From a virus (lineage: Duplodnaviria; Heunggongvirae; Uroviricota; Caudoviricetes), in IMG/VR virus record IMGVR_UViG_3300031994_002305, positions 37,073 through 101,072 of that record: a stretch of 64,000 bases of DNA; one strand, given 5' to 3'. The position numbers and the translations under genes were made by a program. This document shows positions 55,050 through 57,877 of the stretch, piece by piece. The notes below the pieces were generated by a model. It saw only the letters and a list, made by a program, of their open reading frames with translations. It did not search any database and was not told where the DNA came from. Each line of letters starts with the position of its first letter. The stretch's first letter is position 1.

Positions 55050-55122
55050 GCCCCGGTAGTTCAACGGATTAGAATACATCACTACGGATGATATGATGAG
55101 GGTTCGATTCCTTCTCGGGGTA
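55050..55122 (+). tRNA. tRNA-Arg(ACG)
   Basis: Cloverleaf: acceptor GCCCCGG/TCGGGGT, anticodon arm CATCA-CTACGGA-TGATA, T-loop TTCGATT; no encoded CCA. Confidence 0.88.
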
Positions 55123-55123
55123 C

Positions 55124-55239
55124 AATTGAGGATGCTGAAAAAGACTACGATAGTTTAAGGGTAAAATACCTCCTGTTAGAGGGGATGCTGGTTCGAATCC
55201 ACTGAATGCTTGATTAGGTTACTTGCAAGGTTCTCAATT
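55124..55239 (+). ncRNA. tRNA-derived structured RNA (D, anticodon-like GTT and T arms) inside a non-tRNA closing stem
   Basis: Stem AATTGAGGAT/GTTCTCAATT encloses TAGTTTAAGGGTAAAAT, CCTC-CTGTTA-GAGG and TGG-TTCGAAT-CCA. Confidence 0.5.
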
Positions 55240-55244
55240 AAAGC

Positions 55245-55343
55245 TTTATTTGTATATTGTAGTGTACAATGCAATTGCAGATGCCAAAGGATAAAGGTTG
55301 AGGAGATAGGTTACGGCTCCTTATAAAAACAAATTGCGTAGCC
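55245..55343 (+). ncRNA. Candidate structured RNA ending in an H-type pseudoknot
   Basis: TGAGGAG/CTCCTTA plus GGTTACG/CGTAGCC with an A-rich linker; upstream CTTTATT/GATAAAG domain. Confidence 0.45.
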
Positions 55344-55349
55344 ACATTT

Positions 55350-55425
55350 GGCCCTGTAGTTCAACGGAATTTAGAACAGTTGGCTTCTACCCTTCAGGTT
55401 GGGGGTTCGAATCCCTCCAGGGTCA
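55350..55425 (+). tRNA. tRNA-Arg(TCT) with two U-U mismatches in the anticodon stem
   Basis: GGCCCTG/CAGGGTC, GTTGG-CTTCTAC-CCTTC, GGGGG-TTCGAAT-CCCTC. Confidence 0.75.
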
Positions 55426-55501
55426 CAAATTATTAGCTTAATGGATTATAACTATTAATTAGTTAAATATTATTTTTAATTAAATATATATATATATATA
55501 T

Positions 55502-55590
55502 ACACGGGTAAAGCGTAATTGGATGACCGCCCTGGTCTACGAAACCAGTTTATAGAAATATAATTGTGGGTTCGACTCCCACCTCGTGTA
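55502..55590 (+). tRNA. tRNA with Arg(ACG) anticodon and a long variable arm
   Basis: ACACGGG/CTCGTGT, CTGGT-CTACGAA-ACCAG, variable arm TTATA-GAAA-TATAA, GTGGG-TTCGACT-CCCAC. Confidence 0.8.
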
Positions 55591-55603
55591 CTAATTATAT
55601 AAT

Positions 55604-56386
55604 ATGGATAACATATGTAAATGTAAATATTGTGGAAAAGAATTTGATAATAAACAAAAACTTGGTGGACATATAATACATTGTGAAAAAAATCCTAATT
55701 TTGAAAATAGTAAAAAACAATTAGAATTAGCACGAAAAAATATTAAATTTATAAATAAACATCTACATTGTCAATATTGTGGAAAAGAAATTGCTAATAA
55801 TGGATGTTTAGTAATTCATGAAAAATCATGTATAAATAATCCTAATAGAGAAAAATGTCCAAATAGAAAAGGTAATGGTGGTAAAACAAAAGGTCATAAA
55901 TGTAAATGGAAAGGAAAAAATAAATTTAATGATCCAATATTAGCAAAAATATATAAAACATGGAAACAAAAATTTGATAATGGTGAATATGAATATATAC
56001 GTAATGGTCATAAACATAATGAAGAAACAAAACAACGTTTAAGAGAAATATTTGAAGAAAAAATAAAAAATCAAATTGGAAGTTTTAAATGTTTTTATGC
56101 AAAAAGAGCATGTGAATATATTGATAAATTAAATAAAGAAAAAAATTGGAAATTACAACATGCAGAAAATGGTGGAGAAATTAATTGTTTAGGATATTGG
56201 TTAGATGGATATGATAAAGAATTAAATATTGTATTTGAATATGATGAGCCTAAACATTATAAAGATGTATTAAACAATATATTAACAGATAAAGATATAC
56301 AAAGACAAAATAATATAATTAATAAACTTAAATGCGAGTTTTGGAGATATAATGAATATATAAATTTATTATATAAAGTGAATTAA
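55604..56386 (+). CDS. Putative free-standing homing endonuclease (two C2HC Zn fingers, NUMOD3-like motif, PD-(D/E)XK/Vsr-like domain)
   Basis: CKYCGK..H..HC twice, GHKHNEETKQRL, YWLDGYD....VFEYDEPKH...D..RQ. Confidence 0.7.
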   Translation: MDNICKCKYCGKEFDNKQKLGGHIIHCEKNPNFENSKKQLELARKNIKFINKHLHCQYCGKEIANNGCLVIHEKSCINNPNREKCPNRKGNGGKTKGHKCKWKGKNKFNDPILAKIYKTWKQKFDNGEYEYIRNGHKHNEETKQRLREIFEEKIKNQIGSFKCFYAKRACEYIDKLNKEKNWKLQHAENGGEINCLGYWLDGYDKELNIVFEYDEPKHYKDVLNNILTDKDIQRQNNIINKLKCEFWRYNEYINLLYKVN

Positions 56387-56564
56387 ATACTTGGGATGTA
56401 GGCTTGGAAGCGGCCATCATCTAAGGAACTAAAAGATATGATTAAAGTAAATGGTTTAATAAACTCCGATGGCATGAATTTGGAAACGCGTCCCCTTAAT
56501 TGGAAGCTGTCGGAAACGATTTTATCAAAGAAATAACATTTGCGTAACAGCGCACCAAGTATTT
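56385..56564 (+). ncRNA. Stand-alone RNA mimicking the 23S rRNA uL11-binding domain (H43-H44, GTPase-associated centre) with a 112-nt insertion
   Basis: GGATGTAGGCTTGGAAGCGGCCATCATCTAAGGAA ... TGCGTAACAGCGCAC matches 23S nt 1055-1104 (E. coli numbering, recalled sequence), closed by the perfect stem AAATACTTGG/CCAAGTATTT. Confidence 0.8.
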
Positions 56565-56571
56565 TATTTAT

Positions 56572-56643
56572 GCCCCGGTAATTCAAAGCACAGAATCTCG
56601 GTCTTCTAAACCGATTATGAGGGTTGGATTCCCTCCTGGGGTA
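56572..56643 (+). tRNA. tRNA-Arg(TCT) with a C19-G56 elbow
   Basis: GCCCCGG/CTGGGGT, TCGGT-CTTCTAA-ACCGA, GAGGG-TTGGATT-CCCTC. Confidence 0.85.
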
Positions 56644-56647
56644 CACT

Positions 56648-56823
56648 TAAGTCATTCGGTGTTATATGTAGGTTCAAGCCCTGCCGCAATGGAGATGACG
56701 ACGAACGGGAATGTATCTCATTAGTGTTAAATCCCGTCCAAGCCTTAATAGGGAGTTGCTAATGAGTAAGGTCGGACACTGTTAAATCTGTAAGTAGTAC
56801 GTAATGCTTATATGAATGATTTA
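56648..56823 (+). ncRNA. Candidate structured RNA with a T-arm-like hairpin and a pseudoknot
   Basis: Closing stem TAAGTCATTC/GAATGATTTA; GTAGG-TTCAAGC-CCTGC; CTCATTAGTG/TGCTAATGAG; ACGGGA/TCCCGT. Confidence 0.6.
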
Positions 56824-56830
56824 TTTAAAT

Positions 56831-57012
56831 AGGGATGTAGCTCAGAACTTGGACAGAGCGCGATAAAACGAAGATCGTGGTGGAAAATGTCTTGAAGGAG
56901 AAATCCAGGAGTTAAGTTTGCGGAAGCACTGAAAAGAGGTGAAACTCAAGTAAGGAAGCGCGTTTTATGTACCACCTTAAACATAGCGTGGGTTCGAATC
57001 CCATCATCCCTA
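56831..57012 (+). ncRNA. tRNA-like RNA (182 nt) with intact acceptor, D and T arms; anticodon/variable region replaced by a ~125-nt structured domain
   Basis: AGGGATG/CATCCCT-A, GCTC..GG..GAGC, GTGGG-TTCGAAT-CCCAT; inner ATAAAACG/CGTTTTAT. Confidence 0.75.
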
Positions 57013-57016
57013 CAAT

Positions 57017-57078
57017 GTGCTCGGATGGCCGTAGTTCCAACCAGACGTGGTAGGTGGTATTAAATACCTTTGGAGCAC
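57017..57078 (+). ncRNA. Candidate small four-way-junction RNA
   Basis: GTGCTC/GAGCAC encloses three short hairpins (GG-ATGG-CC, ACCA-GACG-TGGT, GGTAT-TAA-ATACC). Confidence 0.4.
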
Positions 57079-57148
57079 TATAAAAGTAATATGGGCCTCA
57101 GAAGCGTGGTAGAACTCTCATAGCTTCATTTTAATTAAACAAATAAAT

Positions 57149-57709
57149 ATGAGTAGAGGTTATAAAGTAAACAATTTAGTTTTGGATCATAACAAGAAAT
57201 ATTCCAAGATTACATCAGTGGATCTTGAAGAGAGATATGATAGAGTGTTTGGCTTTATGGTACGAACCTCACATCAATATGCTGCTGCACGAAAAGTTCG
57301 GTGGTATGAAGAATTTATTAAACATGATTCTCCTTATGTAAAAGAAAATAAAAAAAGATTTATGGAAGATATTGAAAGATATAAGGATAATTTAGATGAA
57401 GCCATTGAAAGGAGAATTTATTTGACTCATAAAGTTTTAAAGGAAATGAGTGAAGGTGTTATCAATACAATAACACAAGGTATTTGGCTTTCATATCCAC
57501 ATACAACAGAGGTTGTTAAAATTGATGAGCATAAAGATAAATATATTATATTGACTCTTTGTACTGGAGAGAAATTTTATGCATATAAGAAATGGATTGA
57601 ATATGATACTCCACGTGGAAGATATGATTACGTTAAGCAAAGATGGATAACAAAAAAGCCAATACATAAGCAATTTTATAGCAAACTTAAAATTTTGAAA
57701 AAGTTATGA
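57149..57709 (+). CDS. Hypothetical protein within the tRNA cluster
   Basis: 186-aa ORF whose TGA stop overlaps the first bases of tRNA-Arg(CCT). Confidence 0.7.
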   Translation: MSRGYKVNNLVLDHNKKYSKITSVDLEERYDRVFGFMVRTSHQYAAARKVRWYEEFIKHDSPYVKENKKRFMEDIERYKDNLDEAIERRIYLTHKVLKEMSEGVINTITQGIWLSYPHTTEVVKIDEHKDKYIILTLCTGEKFYAYKKWIEYDTPRGRYDYVKQRWITKKPIHKQFYSKLKILKKL

Positions 57710-57780
57710 TCCTATAATTCAACTGAATAGAATAATTTCCTCCTAAGAAATAAATATGAGTTTGAGTCTCATTGGGATCA
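57708..57780 (+). tRNA. tRNA-Arg(CCT) with an A19-U56 elbow
   Basis: GATCCTA/TGGGATC, ATTTC-CTCCTAA-GAAAT, ATGAG-TTTGAGT-CTCAT. Confidence 0.8.
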
Positions 57781-57788
57781 CTTAATAT

Positions 57789-57860
57789 GCTCCTATAGTT
57801 TAGTGGCTAGAACTATTATCTCGTAAGTAATCAGCATGAGTTCGATTCTCATTGGGAGCT
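57789..57860 (+). tRNA. tRNA-Thr(CGT)
   Basis: GCTCCTA/TGGGAGC, ATTAT-CTCGTAA-GTAAT, ATGAG-TTCGATT-CTCAT. Confidence 0.85.
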
Positions 57861-57877
57861 CATTTTTTATATAATAT

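What the first reader, a model, noticed from the sequence alone, without database searches (positions are those of the whole stretch)
56831..57012. tRNA scaffold whose anticodon arm is replaced by a ~125-nt folded domain
Seen: a perfect 7-bp acceptor stem, U8-A9, a 4-bp D stem with GG in the loop and a canonical T arm. Between them lie an 8-bp helix (ATAAAACG 56863-70 / CGTTTTAT 56961-68), GNRA-capped hairpins (GGA-GAAA-TCC, TGC-GGAA-GCA) and a possible pseudoknot (GTGGTG 56877-82 / TACCAC 56970-75). No anticodon loop is identifiable. It is not tmRNA (full D stem, no G3-U70, too short) and is too short for a typical group I intron. Inference: the tRNA shell gives processing and stability to a cargo RNA, acts as an uncharged-tRNA or elbow decoy, or holds a novel intron.
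Basis: partly seen in the sequence, partly recalled or inferred. Interest (0 to 1): 0.75.

Follow-up and report, generated by a model that had tools for sequence, protein, structure and literature searches.

The report
Arginine tRNA look-alike with giant arm
A 376-kb rumen phage and its relatives carry a strongly conserved 182-base gene shaped like an arginine tRNA, with a complete anticodon arm that breaks the near-universal U33 rule and a roughly 100-base folded domain in place of the small variable loop, so it is probably a specialised tRNA look-alike and not a routine decoder or an intron-bearing tRNA.

Summary
The tRNA scaffold is real: a 7-bp acceptor stem, U8, a 4-bp D stem, GG in the D loop, and a T arm with the UUCGAAU loop. 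The claim that no anticodon loop can be identified is wrong.

**Anticodon arm.** Right after G26 lies a contiguous 17-nt anticodon arm (56861-56877) with ACG at positions 34-36. The loop reads AAACGAA, so position 33 is A.

**Insert.** The large insert (56879-56976 plus a tail to 56987) sits at the variable-arm position.

**Homologues.** Fourteen distinct copies from rumen phage contigs all lie inside a tRNA-Arg cluster.
- They support this fold with an A-U to U-A swap in the anticodon stem and covariation in the acceptor stem, T stem and two arm helices. One arm pair, 56930-56953, switches 7:7 between U-A and C-G.
- They argue against ARAGORN's "Ser tRNA plus 89-nt intron" model.
It shows no covariation and two disruptions, so it may be an alternative "locked" state.

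**Conservation.** The element is more conserved (94%) than the neighbouring tRNA-Arg(CCU) (75%).

**Function.** Function is inferred only. My best guess is an ArgRS-recognisable tRNA-Arg mimic whose arm binds a partner.

This scan has noted similar giant-arm, A33 phage tRNA-like genes on other DNA.

The parts
56831..56837 (+). Acceptor stem, 5' strand (AGGGAUG)
   Evidence: Pairs with 57005-57011. Four of the 7 pairs show double compensatory changes among 14 homologues, for example ACUGGUG/CACCAGU in L009.
56838..56860 (+). U8 A9, the D arm (stem 56840-43/56856-59, loop AGAACUUGGACA with G18 G19 A20) and G26 (56860)
   Evidence: Read directly. The D stem is 98% paired. G26 becomes A in L011, which keeps the pair with U44.
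56861..56877 (+). Anticodon arm: stem CGAUA/GAUCG, 7-nt loop AAACGAA (A32 A33, anticodon A34 C35 G36 = 56868-70, then A37 A38)
   Evidence: - The 29-41 pair swaps A-U to U-A in L010, and also in the partial copy L020.
- RNAalifold predicts the arm independently.
- Positions 31-36 (56865-70) are invariant, while positions 37-41 (56871-75) are the most variable run in the molecule.
- 64 of the 65 other tRNAs in this genome have U33.
56878..56976 (+). U44 plus the giant variable arm. Helices: Pa GGUGG 56879-83 / CCACC 56972-76; Pb AAAAUGU 56884-90 / GCGUUUU 56960-66; Pc CUU 56891-93 / AAG 56956-58; hairpin 1 56897-906 (GAAA loop); hairpin 2 56919-28 (GGAA loop); Pd 56929-30 / 56953-54; hairpin 3 56936-47
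   Evidence: - This is the MFE fold and the RNAalifold consensus.
- Pair 56930-56953 is U-A in 7 copies and C-G in 7.
- Hairpin 3 switches between GAG/CUC and GAUA/UAUC.
- In Pb, two G.U pairs become A-U (L021, L010).
- Pa, Pc and hairpin 1 never vary, so they are not tested by covariation.
56977..56987 (+). Invariant 3' tail UUAAACAUAGC joining the arm to the T stem; C48 is 56987
   Evidence: It is invariant in all copies. ACAU 56981-84 is complementary to the internal loop AUGU 56967-70, so a knot is possible. This is an inference from the sequence and has no covariation to test it.
56988..57004 (+). T arm: GUGGG / CCCAU with loop UUCGAAU
   Evidence: One pair has a double change (U-A to C-G in L011 and L021), and the arm is 100% paired.
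57005..57012 (+). Acceptor stem 3' strand plus the discriminator (A here; G or U in some relatives); no encoded CCA
56961..56968 (+). CGUUUUAU, the strand that can pair either with AAAAUG(U) in the arm (open state) or with AUAAAACG 56863-70, which includes the anticodon (locked state)
   Evidence: - An 8-nt complement that covers the anticodon arises in only 4 of 2000 shuffles of the insert.
- The helix shows no covariation and has two disruptions.
- The energies of the two states are comparable.

Best explanation
**What it is (shown).** The element is a gene for a tRNA-Arg(ACG)-derived RNA with a full cloverleaf.
- It has an acceptor stem, a D arm, a contiguous anticodon arm and a T arm.
- Its variable loop has grown into a conserved domain of about 100 nt, made of three stacked helices topped by three hairpins.
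- It sits in the phage's tRNA-Arg cluster, a few bases from neighbouring tRNA genes in several relatives.

**How it is made (inferred).** It is probably transcribed and trimmed like a tRNA.

**How it works (inferred).**
1. It keeps the nucleotides that arginyl-tRNA synthetase is known to read (A20, C35, G36) and the tRNA core nucleotides. It is therefore probably recognised, and possibly charged, as tRNA-Arg.
2. It has A33 instead of the universal U33. The 3' half of its anticodon loop is relaxed. Its arm carries a strand that can base-pair with its own anticodon. The phage already has ordinary tRNA-Arg(ACG) genes. For these reasons it is probably not a routine decoder.
3. It most likely acts as a tRNA-Arg look-alike. 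The tRNA body gives processing, stability and recognition by tRNA-Arg-binding factors. The invariant arm binds a phage or host partner. Examples would be diverting or blocking a host enzyme that attacks or modifies tRNA-Arg, or forming an RNP.
For: **Structure.**
- The RNAalifold consensus equals the MFE fold.
- 98.2% of cells are paired, and 8 pairs have double changes against 2.9 in shuffles.
- There is an A-U to U-A swap in the anticodon stem (L010, L020).
- There is a 7:7 U-A/C-G switch at 56930-56953.

**Arg origin.**
- The anticodon ACG is invariant.
- The loop ACGAA is identical to that of neighbouring phage tRNA-Arg(ACG) genes, which read CUACGAA or AUACGAA.
- The element always lies between Arg(UCU/ACG) and Arg(CCU) genes in 16 loci.
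- A20, C35 and G36 are invariant. Their role as ArgRS identity elements is textbook knowledge that I did not test.

**Not a standard decoder.**
- A33 is invariant here, while 64 of the genome's 65 other tRNAs have U33.
- Every locus that spans the upstream part of the Arg cluster holds 1-2 canonical Arg(ACG) tRNAs.

**Selection.**
- Mean pairwise identity is 93.8%, against 74.6% for the adjacent tRNA-Arg(CCU) in the same 13 loci.
- The 27-nt 3' segment of the arm never varies.

**Precedent for phage tRNAs used against tRNA-targeting defences.** PMC11464382, PMC11555353 and PMC10264068. I read only their abstracts.
Against: - There is no RNA evidence at all. Expression, the ends of the molecule, charging and the retention of the insert are all unshown.
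- The homologue set is narrow: one clade, 14 distinct copies. It was collected with an exact 23-position pattern (22 specified bases) inside the insert. This inflates apparent conservation and leaves many helices invariant and untested.
- A33 lowers decoding but is not known to abolish it (my own knowledge).
- Engineered tRNAs with aptamer hairpins in the variable arm still translate (PMC7590224, abstract only). A decoder role therefore cannot be excluded.
- No target nuclease or partner protein has been identified.
- Comparable 'look-alike, not decoder' claims made by this scan on other DNA were marked down on later checks.
Confidence: 0.42

Rival explanations
1. It is a working arginine tRNA. 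It would be an extreme member of this phage's habit of giving class-I tRNAs long GNRA-capped variable arms. It decodes CGU/CGN, and the giant arm and A33 make it resistant to a host anticodon nuclease or mark it for phage-specific handling.
For: - The cloverleaf is complete and all core tertiary nucleotides are present.
- The ArgRS identity nucleotides and the ACG anticodon are invariant.
- The same genome has His, Asn, Thr, Asp and Ile(UAU) tRNAs of 84-91 nt with long variable arms. The Asn arm carries the same GGAGAAAUCC hairpin as this element.
- Aptamer-tagged tRNAs can translate (PMC7590224 abstract).
Against: - A33 is unique among the genome's tRNAs.
- Position 38 varies between A and G here, but is always A in the distinct canonical phage Arg(ACG) genes read.
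- Normal Arg(ACG) tRNAs are already present.
- A roughly 100-nt arm is about four times longer than any known decoding tRNA arm.
- An arm strand is complementary to the anticodon.
Confidence: 0.25
2. The 8-bp helix 56863-70 / 56961-68 buries the anticodon, and GGUGG/CCACC forms a pseudoknot. The RNA would then be a self-locked tRNA shell that toggles between a presented and a hidden anticodon, for example to control access by ArgRS or a nuclease.
For: - The complement covers exactly positions 29-36, including A32 and A33. That happens in 4 of 2000 insert shuffles.
- There is a sharp boundary between the invariant run 56864-70 and the hypervariable run 56871-75. This matches the footprint of the helix better than a normal anticodon loop would.
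- Only the 5' strand of the anticodon stem is frozen.
- The energies are comparable once Pa is counted.
- The arm holds a near-copy of the anticodon strand (AAAAUG against AAAACG). This could hold the U-rich strand in the open state.
Against: - The helix has no covariation.
- The three changes seen all weaken it or favour the open fold:
  - L010: A56863U is compensated in the anticodon stem instead.
  - L021: G56962A breaks C35-G and turns a G.U pair of Pb into A-U.
  - L010: G56960A strengthens Pb.
- The shuffle test was designed after the helix had been seen.
- The open cloverleaf is the MFE in all 14 copies.
Confidence: 0.15
3. It is the RNA partner, a Y-RNA analogue, of the phage's Ro60-like TROVE-vWA protein. 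The tRNA body would protect it or target it, and the arm would bind the protein.
For: - The genome encodes a TROVE protein (42.5 bits).
- In three other contigs (L005, L012, L010) a Ro60-like TROVE-vWA gene heads the same-strand tRNA array 1.5-4 kb upstream of the element.
- No canonical YrlA is found there.
- Bacterial and phage Y RNAs mimic tRNAs (PMC4201824).
Against: - In the window's own genome and in G001 the TROVE gene is 30-36 kb away.
- There is no YrlA match on the element.
- The ends of Y RNAs lie in the Ro-binding stem, whereas here they lie in the acceptor stem.
- Several other unexplained structured RNAs in the same cluster are equally good candidates.
Confidence: 0.08
4. The insert is an intron that proteins cut out and rejoin. 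The phage has RtcB. The product would be a short tRNA.
For: - ARAGORN in intron mode calls tRNA-Ser with an 89-90-nt intron.
- RtcB is present in the genome.
- Lak megaphages are reported to have tRNAs with 'enigmatic introns' (PMC6784885).
Against: - ARAGORN's anticodon stem sacrifices the perfect D stem. Three of its 5 pairs are each broken once with no compensation.
- The real anticodon arm is contiguous.
- There is no group I hit at E <= 10.
- There is no EndA-type endonuclease.
- The junctions do not form a bulge-helix-bulge (direct reading).
- Removing the arm would still leave A32 and A33.
- No insert-free allele was found.
- The insert is conserved about as strongly as the tRNA body, with the ascertainment caveat already stated.
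Confidence: 0.07
5. It is a decaying tRNA pseudogene with a random insertion.
For: Default ARAGORN and the Rfam tRNA model both miss it.
Against: It is 94% conserved while the neighbouring tRNAs have diverged to 75%. There are compensatory changes in five helices. Its position is kept in 16 contigs.
Confidence: 0.01

Closest known systems
Bacterial and phage tRNA-Arg(ACG), the tRNA-Arg2 type
   Same: - 7/4/5/5 cloverleaf.
- D loop with GG followed by A20.
- Anticodon ACG followed by AA.
- T loop UUCGAAU.
- Location inside a tRNA-Arg gene cluster.
   Different: - A32 and A33 instead of C/A32 and U33.
- A variable region of about 110 nt instead of 4-5 nt.
- Total length of 182 nt.
- Much higher conservation than the canonical neighbours.
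Class II tRNAs (Leu, Ser, bacterial Tyr, Sec) and allo-tRNAs (Mukai et al. 2017, PMC5389517; cited from earlier scan notes and not read here)
   Same: The extra helix emerges between the anticodon stem and the T stem.
   Different: - Known arms are about 10-25 nt single hairpins. Here there is a branched, roughly 100-nt domain with three hairpins.
- The body is of Arg (class I) identity.
- The acceptor/T geometry is 7/5, not the 8/4 or 9/3 of allo-tRNAs.
Lak megaphage tRNAs with 'enigmatic introns' (Devoto et al. 2019, PMC6784885)
   Same: Both are oversized tRNA genes in huge, AT-rich gut phages. In both, the inserts are highly conserved and match no Rfam family.
   Different: Those inserts were placed in the anticodon loop by eukaryote-mode tRNAscan. 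Here the anticodon arm is intact and the insert is at the variable position. Splicing has not been shown in either case.
YrlA and other bacterial or phage Y RNAs (Chen et al. 2014, PMC4201824; Rfam RF02553)
   Same: Both are tRNA-mimicking non-coding RNAs. These phages encode Ro60-like proteins, and in some relatives that gene heads the same tRNA array.
   Different: There is no RF02553 match. The termini lie in a true 7-bp acceptor stem instead of a Ro-binding stem. A complete anticodon arm is present.
Phage tRNAs that neutralise tRNA-targeting defences: T5 tRNAs against PARIS (PMC11464382), against the retron effector PtuAB (PMC11555353), and the anticodon-loop mutation model (PMC10264068)
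   Same: A phage-encoded variant of a host-type tRNA with a deviant anticodon loop, present alongside multiple isoacceptor copies.
   Different: Those are normal-sized decoding tRNAs with experimental support. Here there is a giant arm and A33, no known cognate nuclease, and no experiment.
Giant-arm, A33 phage tRNA-like genes noted earlier in this scan (e1-3451191, e1-2903477, e1-5406935, e1-2167918)
   Same: The same design: a canonical body, A33, a large conserved insert at the variable position, and an arm complementary to the anticodon loop.
   Different: Those have a different anticodon (Lys UUU and others) and shorter arms of 68-120 nt. No sequence similarity was found. They are unpublished AI notes, and parts of them were marked down on later checks.

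Membership tests
Canonical tRNA (Rfam RF00005) | Cloverleaf with a 7-bp acceptor stem, D arm, 5-bp/7-nt anticodon arm and 5-bp T arm | tested here: met
   All four arms are present and supported by covariation, except the D stem, which is invariant.
Canonical tRNA (Rfam RF00005) | Scores above the family's gathering threshold, or is called by default ARAGORN | tested here: not met
   There is no RF00005 hit on 56831-57012 at gathering or at E <= 10. Default ARAGORN misses it. The 110-nt variable region explains this.
Canonical tRNA (Rfam RF00005) | U33 before the anticodon | tested here: not met
   A33 (56867) is present in all 14 copies. 64 of the 65 other tRNAs in the genome have U33.
Canonical tRNA (Rfam RF00005) | Aminoacylation and use on the ribosome | not testable with these tools
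   Needs charging and translation assays.
tRNA-Arg identity set (E. coli rules; own knowledge) | A20, C35 and G36/U36 present | tested here: met
   GGA in the D loop (56851-53) and C35 G36 (56869-70) are invariant. Recognition by ArgRS itself was not tested.
Class II tRNA | A long variable arm between positions 44 and 48, of 10-25 nt, in a Leu, Ser or Tyr body | tested here: not met
   The position is right, but the arm is about 100 nt and branched, and the body is of Arg type.
Group I intron in a tRNA | Match to the group I core (P3-P9, G-binding site), with the insertion in the anticodon loop | tested here: not met
   There is no RF00028 hit at E <= 10. The anticodon arm is contiguous. The insert is too short.
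Protein-spliced (archaeal or eukaryal type) tRNA intron | Bulge-helix-bulge at the junctions, an EndA-type endonuclease, and a ligase | tested here: not met
   - The junctions around Pa show no 3-nt/4-bp/3-nt motif (direct reading).
- PF01974 is absent from the genome.
- RtcB is present.
- Splicing itself is not testable here.
tmRNA | A tRNA-Ala-like domain without a D stem, G3-U70, and a tag ORF with pseudoknots | tested here: not met
   - A full D stem is present.
- The RF00023 hit is only 14.7 bits against a threshold of 47, and covers the T arm and acceptor end only.
- The true tmRNA lies elsewhere.
YrlA / Y RNA | RF02553 match, termini in a Ro60-binding stem, and the gene next to Ro60 | tested here: not met
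   - No hit on the element.
- The termini form an acceptor stem.
- The Ro60-like gene is 1.5-4 kb upstream in 3 contigs but 30-36 kb away in two genomes. The adjacency criterion alone is inconclusive.
allo-tRNA | 8/4 or 9/3 acceptor/T-stem geometry | tested here: not met
   The geometry is 7/5.
Anti-defence phage tRNA or decoy | Shown to resist or neutralise a tRNA-targeting nuclease | not testable with these tools
   Only the deviant anticodon loop and the redundancy with canonical Arg(ACG) genes were observed.

The most novel reading that the evidence does not exclude
The element is a bistable, self-locking arginine-tRNA mimic. Its giant arm carries an internal CGU-UUU strand that can pair either with a decoy copy of the anticodon strand inside the arm (open, tRNA-like, chargeable) or with the RNA's own anticodon loop (locked). 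A33 would have been selected to complete that helix. The switch would control whether ArgRS, a tRNA-Arg-specific host nuclease or the phage Ro60-like protein sees a tRNA-Arg. That would make it a natural RNA device built on a tRNA chassis, and one member of a wider, undescribed class of giant-arm, A33 phage tRNA mimics.
Probability: 0.15. Interest if true: 0.85.

Novelty: new variant of a known kind. Interest (0 to 1): 0.6.

Why it matters
**Why the architecture is unusual.** tRNA architecture is among the most constrained in biology. A class-I tRNA body carrying a conserved, branched arm of about 100 nt and lacking U33 lies outside the described range of tRNA genes. It is missed by standard annotation, including default ARAGORN and the Rfam tRNA model.

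**What it would show if it is a mimic and not a decoder.**
- It would add an RNA-based layer to the phage-host conflict over tRNAs. So far that conflict is known only from normal-sized phage tRNAs.
- It would show that nature uses the tRNA scaffold to display a functional RNA domain, as engineers do.

**Practical point.** It shows that ARAGORN's intron mode can mis-assign such genes as intron-bearing Ser tRNAs.

**Testability.** Together with similar genes seen elsewhere in this scan, it points to a recurrent design in large gut and rumen phages. That design can be tested directly with tRNA-seq, charging assays and structure probing.

Tried and rejected
1. **Rfam.** Searches at gathering and at E <= 10 gave no family for the element or its insert.
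2. **ARAGORN intron mode.** It gave tRNA-Ser(AGA/GGA) with an 89-90-nt intron. I rejected this on the pair counts and because it sacrifices the perfect D stem.
3. **Annotated phage collection.** BLAST found no match for the element or for 14 kb around it.
5. **Wider homologue hunts.**
   - Three different exact or degenerate patterns from the body, the junction and the 3' arm returned only the same four IMG/VR contigs plus one chance hit.
   - There was no hit in 185,579 species genomes.
   - The neighbour ORF 57149-57709 has no relatives in IMG/VR.
   - A phrog_9677 protein gave only distant phages.
   - As a result I found no insert-free allele and no copy with a different arm or anticodon.
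6. **Paralogues in the own genome.** Only a T-arm fragment matched.
7. **Enzymes that might use a special Arg-tRNA.** There is no phage ArgRS and no ATE/Bpt-type arginyl transferase.
8. **EndA splicing endonuclease.** Absent.
9. **YrlA.** There were only sub-threshold hits elsewhere in the genome, and none on the element.
10. **K-turn or second anticodon-like loop inside the arm.** None was found by inspection.
11. **Stop-codon recoding.** Reading TAG as sense hardly changes ORF coverage (65.6% to 66.5%). Code 11 appears adequate despite the tRNA(CUA).
BLAST against E. coli genomes was uninformative and I did not pursue it.
Full report
**Context**

The window is G000:37073-101072 of a 376,291-bp IMG/VR virus record that CheckV rates 98% complete. 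Its GC content is 26.9%. ARAGORN finds 65 tRNA genes, a tmRNA and a tRNA(CUA) in the genome.

The genome also encodes RtcB and a TROVE/Ro60-like protein. The finding lies in a small tRNA-Arg cluster: ACG at 55050, UCU at 55350, UCU at 56572, then the element, then CCU at 57708 and Thr at 57789.

**Check of the observation**

The scaffold is exactly as described:
- Acceptor stem 56831-37 / 57005-11.
- U8 A9.
- D stem GCUC/GAGC with GG in the loop.
- T arm GUGGG-UUCGAAU-CCCAU.

The 8-bp complementarity 56863-70 / 56961-68 and the two tetraloop hairpins are also there.

Default ARAGORN and Rfam do not call the element. Its single-sequence folding energy is not unusual (z = -0.43), so the case rests on comparative data.

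**Homologues**

Exact-pattern scans found four IMG/VR contigs and fourteen JGI/ENA rumen-type metagenome contigs. These gave 14 distinct full-length copies and 2 partial ones, aligned as A2.

In every locus the element lies on the tRNA strand inside the Arg cluster. It is preceded by Arg(UCU) or Arg(ACG) and followed by Arg(CCU), and in some loci the spacers are only 4-8 nt.

**Which fold?**

I compared three models on A2.

(a) ARAGORN's intron-mode call. This is tRNA-Ser with anticodon stem GCGCG 56858-62 / CGCGU 56959-63 and an 89-nt intron.
- It needs to break the perfect D stem.
- Three of its five stem pairs are each disrupted in one homologue with no compensation.

It has no covariation and two disruptions.

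(c) A plain cloverleaf with a contiguous anticodon arm and a nested giant arm.
- Anticodon arm: CGAUA 56861-65 / GAUCG 56873-77, with loop AAACGAA.
- Nested giant arm: Pa 56879-83 / 56972-76, Pb 56884-90 / 56960-66, Pc 56891-93 / 56956-58 and three hairpins.
- It is both the MFE fold and the independent RNAalifold consensus.
- 98.2% of cells are paired.
- Eight pairs change on both sides, against 2.9 +/- 1.2 in shuffles and 0-2 in slid controls.

The informative events are:
- The 29-41 pair of the anticodon stem swaps A-U to U-A in L010, and in partial L020.
- G26 becomes A in L011, keeping the 26-44 pair.
- Two G.U pairs of Pb become A-U (L021 G56962A; L010 G56960A). The same changes would break models (a) and (b).
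- Pair 56930-56953 is U-A in seven copies and C-G in seven, in different hairpin-3 backgrounds.
- Hairpin 3 alternates between GAG/CUC and GAUA/UAUC.
- The acceptor stem (4 pairs) and the T stem (1 pair) covary.

Pa, Pc, hairpin 1 and the 3' tail never vary, so they are untested.

**Identity of the body**

The anticodon ACG sits at the canonical 34-36. The loop's ACGAA equals that of the neighbouring canonical phage tRNA-Arg(ACG) genes, which read CUACGAA, CUACGGA or AUACGAA.

GG is followed by A20, and C35 and G36 are invariant. By established knowledge these are the main ArgRS identity elements. I did not test recognition.

U8, A14, G15/C48, G18 G19 and the T loop are all canonical. The element is therefore a derivative of tRNA-Arg(ACG), not a shell lacking an anticodon arm.

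**What is abnormal**

1. A32 and A33 are invariant, whereas 64 of the genome's 65 other tRNAs have U33.
2. The variable region is about 110 nt (56878-56987).
3. Conservation within the anticodon arm is lopsided. The 5' strand and the loop up to G36 (positions 27-36) are frozen except for the compensated A29U in L010. Positions 37-41 (56871-75) form the most variable run in the molecule.
4. The frozen stretch 29-36 is exactly complementary to CGUUUUAU in the arm. An 8-nt complement covering the anticodon arises in 4 of 2000 shuffles of the insert. An 8-bp helix anywhere arises in 13% of shuffles. This test was designed after the helix had been seen.
5. The arm also contains AAAAUGU, a near-copy of the anticodon strand, which pairs with the same U-rich strand in the cloverleaf fold.

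Constrained folding puts the open cloverleaf 2.7-7.9 kcal/mol below the nested part of the locked fold in all 14 copies. Adding Pa as a pseudoknot (-6.8 kcal/mol before penalties) would make the two states roughly equal. A two-state RNA is therefore possible, but the few substitutions seen favour the open state.

**Selection**

In the 13 loci that hold both genes:
- The element has 93.8% mean pairwise identity (minimum 87.9%).
- The adjacent tRNA-Arg(CCU) has 74.6% (minimum 62.2%).
- The canonical Arg(ACG) and Arg(UCU) genes are also highly diverse.

A caveat applies. The loci were collected with a 23-position pattern (22 specified bases) inside the insert, which biases the insert's identity upwards. 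The body (93.2%) is outside the pattern. The 27 nt GUUUUAUGUACCACCUUAAACAUAGCG never vary.

This rules out a pseudogene and argues against a passive intron.

**Intron question**

- There is no group I signal.
- The junctions do not form a bulge-helix-bulge (direct reading).
- There is no EndA-type endonuclease in the genome.
- No insert-free allele was found.
- Excision would still leave A32 and A33.

RtcB is present, and Lak megaphages are reported to have tRNAs with 'enigmatic introns' (PMC6784885). Removal of the insert therefore cannot be excluded without RNA data.

**Function (inference)**

The phage has no ArgRS and no arginyl transferase. Every locus that spans the upstream part of the cluster carries canonical Arg(ACG) tRNAs, so this gene is redundant for ordinary decoding.

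The most economical reading has three parts:
- The tRNA body provides processing, CCA addition, stability and recognition by tRNA-Arg-binding factors.
- The deviant anticodon loop keeps the RNA out of routine translation.
- The invariant arm is a binding surface for a partner.

Phage tRNAs that neutralise tRNA-cleaving defences give a precedent for the arena (PMC11464382, PMC11555353, PMC10264068; abstracts only). No nuclease specific for tRNA-Arg was identified here.

A Ro60 link is a weaker lead:
- A Ro60-like TROVE-vWA gene heads the same tRNA array 1.5-4 kb upstream in L005, L012 and L010.
- No canonical YrlA is present there.
- Bacterial and phage Y RNAs mimic tRNAs (PMC4201824).
- In G000 and G001, however, the TROVE gene is 30-36 kb away.
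- The element fails the Y-RNA membership features.

A decoder role remains a serious rival. The same genome gives several class-I tRNAs long GNRA-capped variable arms, and one of them carries the identical GGAGAAAUCC hairpin.

**Relation to known things and to this scan**

In print, the nearest are class II tRNAs and allo-tRNAs, the Lak 'intron' tRNAs, YrlA, and anti-defence phage tRNAs. The element fails at least one defining feature of each.

Earlier notes of this scan describe the same design on unrelated DNA, namely giant-arm, A33 phage tRNA look-alikes. Some of those have an arm complementary to the anticodon loop, and some lie near Ro60.
- These notes are unchecked AI notes.
- Their 'not a decoder' readings were marked down on later checks, so I keep the functional claim modest.
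- No sequence similarity to them was found.

**Verdict**

The element is a real, selected, tRNA-Arg-derived RNA gene with an intact but abnormal anticodon arm and a variable arm of unprecedented size. It is a new variant of the tRNA / tRNA-mimic kind. Its function is unknown, and the leading model is an arginine-tRNA look-alike carrying a partner-binding domain.

Noticed in passing
window 56648-56827: - This is a structured RNA of about 180 nt between tRNA-Arg(UCU) and the element.
- It is closed by GUCAUUC / GAAUGA and has a T-arm-like hairpin, GUAGG-UUCAAGC-CCUGC.
- Against L006:1458-1640 it shows compensatory changes: GUAGG/CCUGC becomes GUGGG/CCCGC, and CUCAUUAG/CUAAUGAG becomes CUCAUCAG/CUGAUGAG.
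- It contains GACGAACG, which fits the GNCGAAN0-1G motif reported for YrlA (PMC4201824).
- It has no Rfam hit.
- It is a candidate partner RNA for the phage Ro60-like protein.
   Followed up: partly
window 55504-55590: A sub-threshold tRNA (28.8 bits against a cut-off of 29) of Arg(ACG) type. It has loop CUACGAA, an 18-nt variable region and a mismatched acceptor stem. It is either a second non-standard ACG-type gene or a decaying copy.
   Followed up: no
window 57017-57078: A 62-nt stem-closed RNA (GUGCUC...GAGCAC) starts 5 nt after the element. Its MFE is -22.4 kcal/mol (z = -1.7), and it is conserved in L005. In L004 and L006 a different odd tRNA-like gene, with anticodon-position loop AGAACAC, occupies this place.
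   Followed up: partly
L006:1640-1768: A further tRNA-shaped unit: acceptor GAGUAUG/CAUACUC, T arm AUUGG-UUCGAAU-CCAUU, and anticodon stem CUAGG/CUUAG enclosing about 55 nt. It lies just upstream of the element in the 435-kb relative and is absent from the window.
   Followed up: no
G000:328000-347200 (outside the window): The main tRNA array.
- It holds class-I-identity tRNAs with long GNRA-capped variable arms: His 86 nt, Asn 88 nt (with GGAGAAAUCC), Thr 84, Asp 91 and Ile(UAU) 86.
- A 137-nt Lys(UUU) gene lies at 344565-344701. It has an insert of about 56-61 nt, a second CUUUUAA hairpin and an encoded CCA.
- A 127-nt 'Leu' gene lies at 344434-344560.
- A tRNA(CUA) lies at 347128.
   Followed up: partly
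window 55604-56386: A 260-aa ORF inside the tRNA cluster with a weak endonuclease match (phrog_15137, E = 3e-5). It is absent from the compact clusters of the relatives, so it is probably a homing-type insertion.
   Followed up: no
G000:129410-130858 (L007:907-2355); L005:60-1778; L012; L010: The phage clade has two types of Ro60-like TROVE-vWA protein, of 482 aa and 572 aa, that are 27% identical. The 572-aa type sits directly upstream of the tRNA array in three contigs.
   Followed up: partly
window 55050-57861 and loci L003-L022: The canonical tRNA-Arg genes of these related phages are very diverse in sequence and vary in copy number (1-2 ACG, 1-2 UCU). This contrasts with the near-invariant giant-arm gene.
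   Followed up: partly
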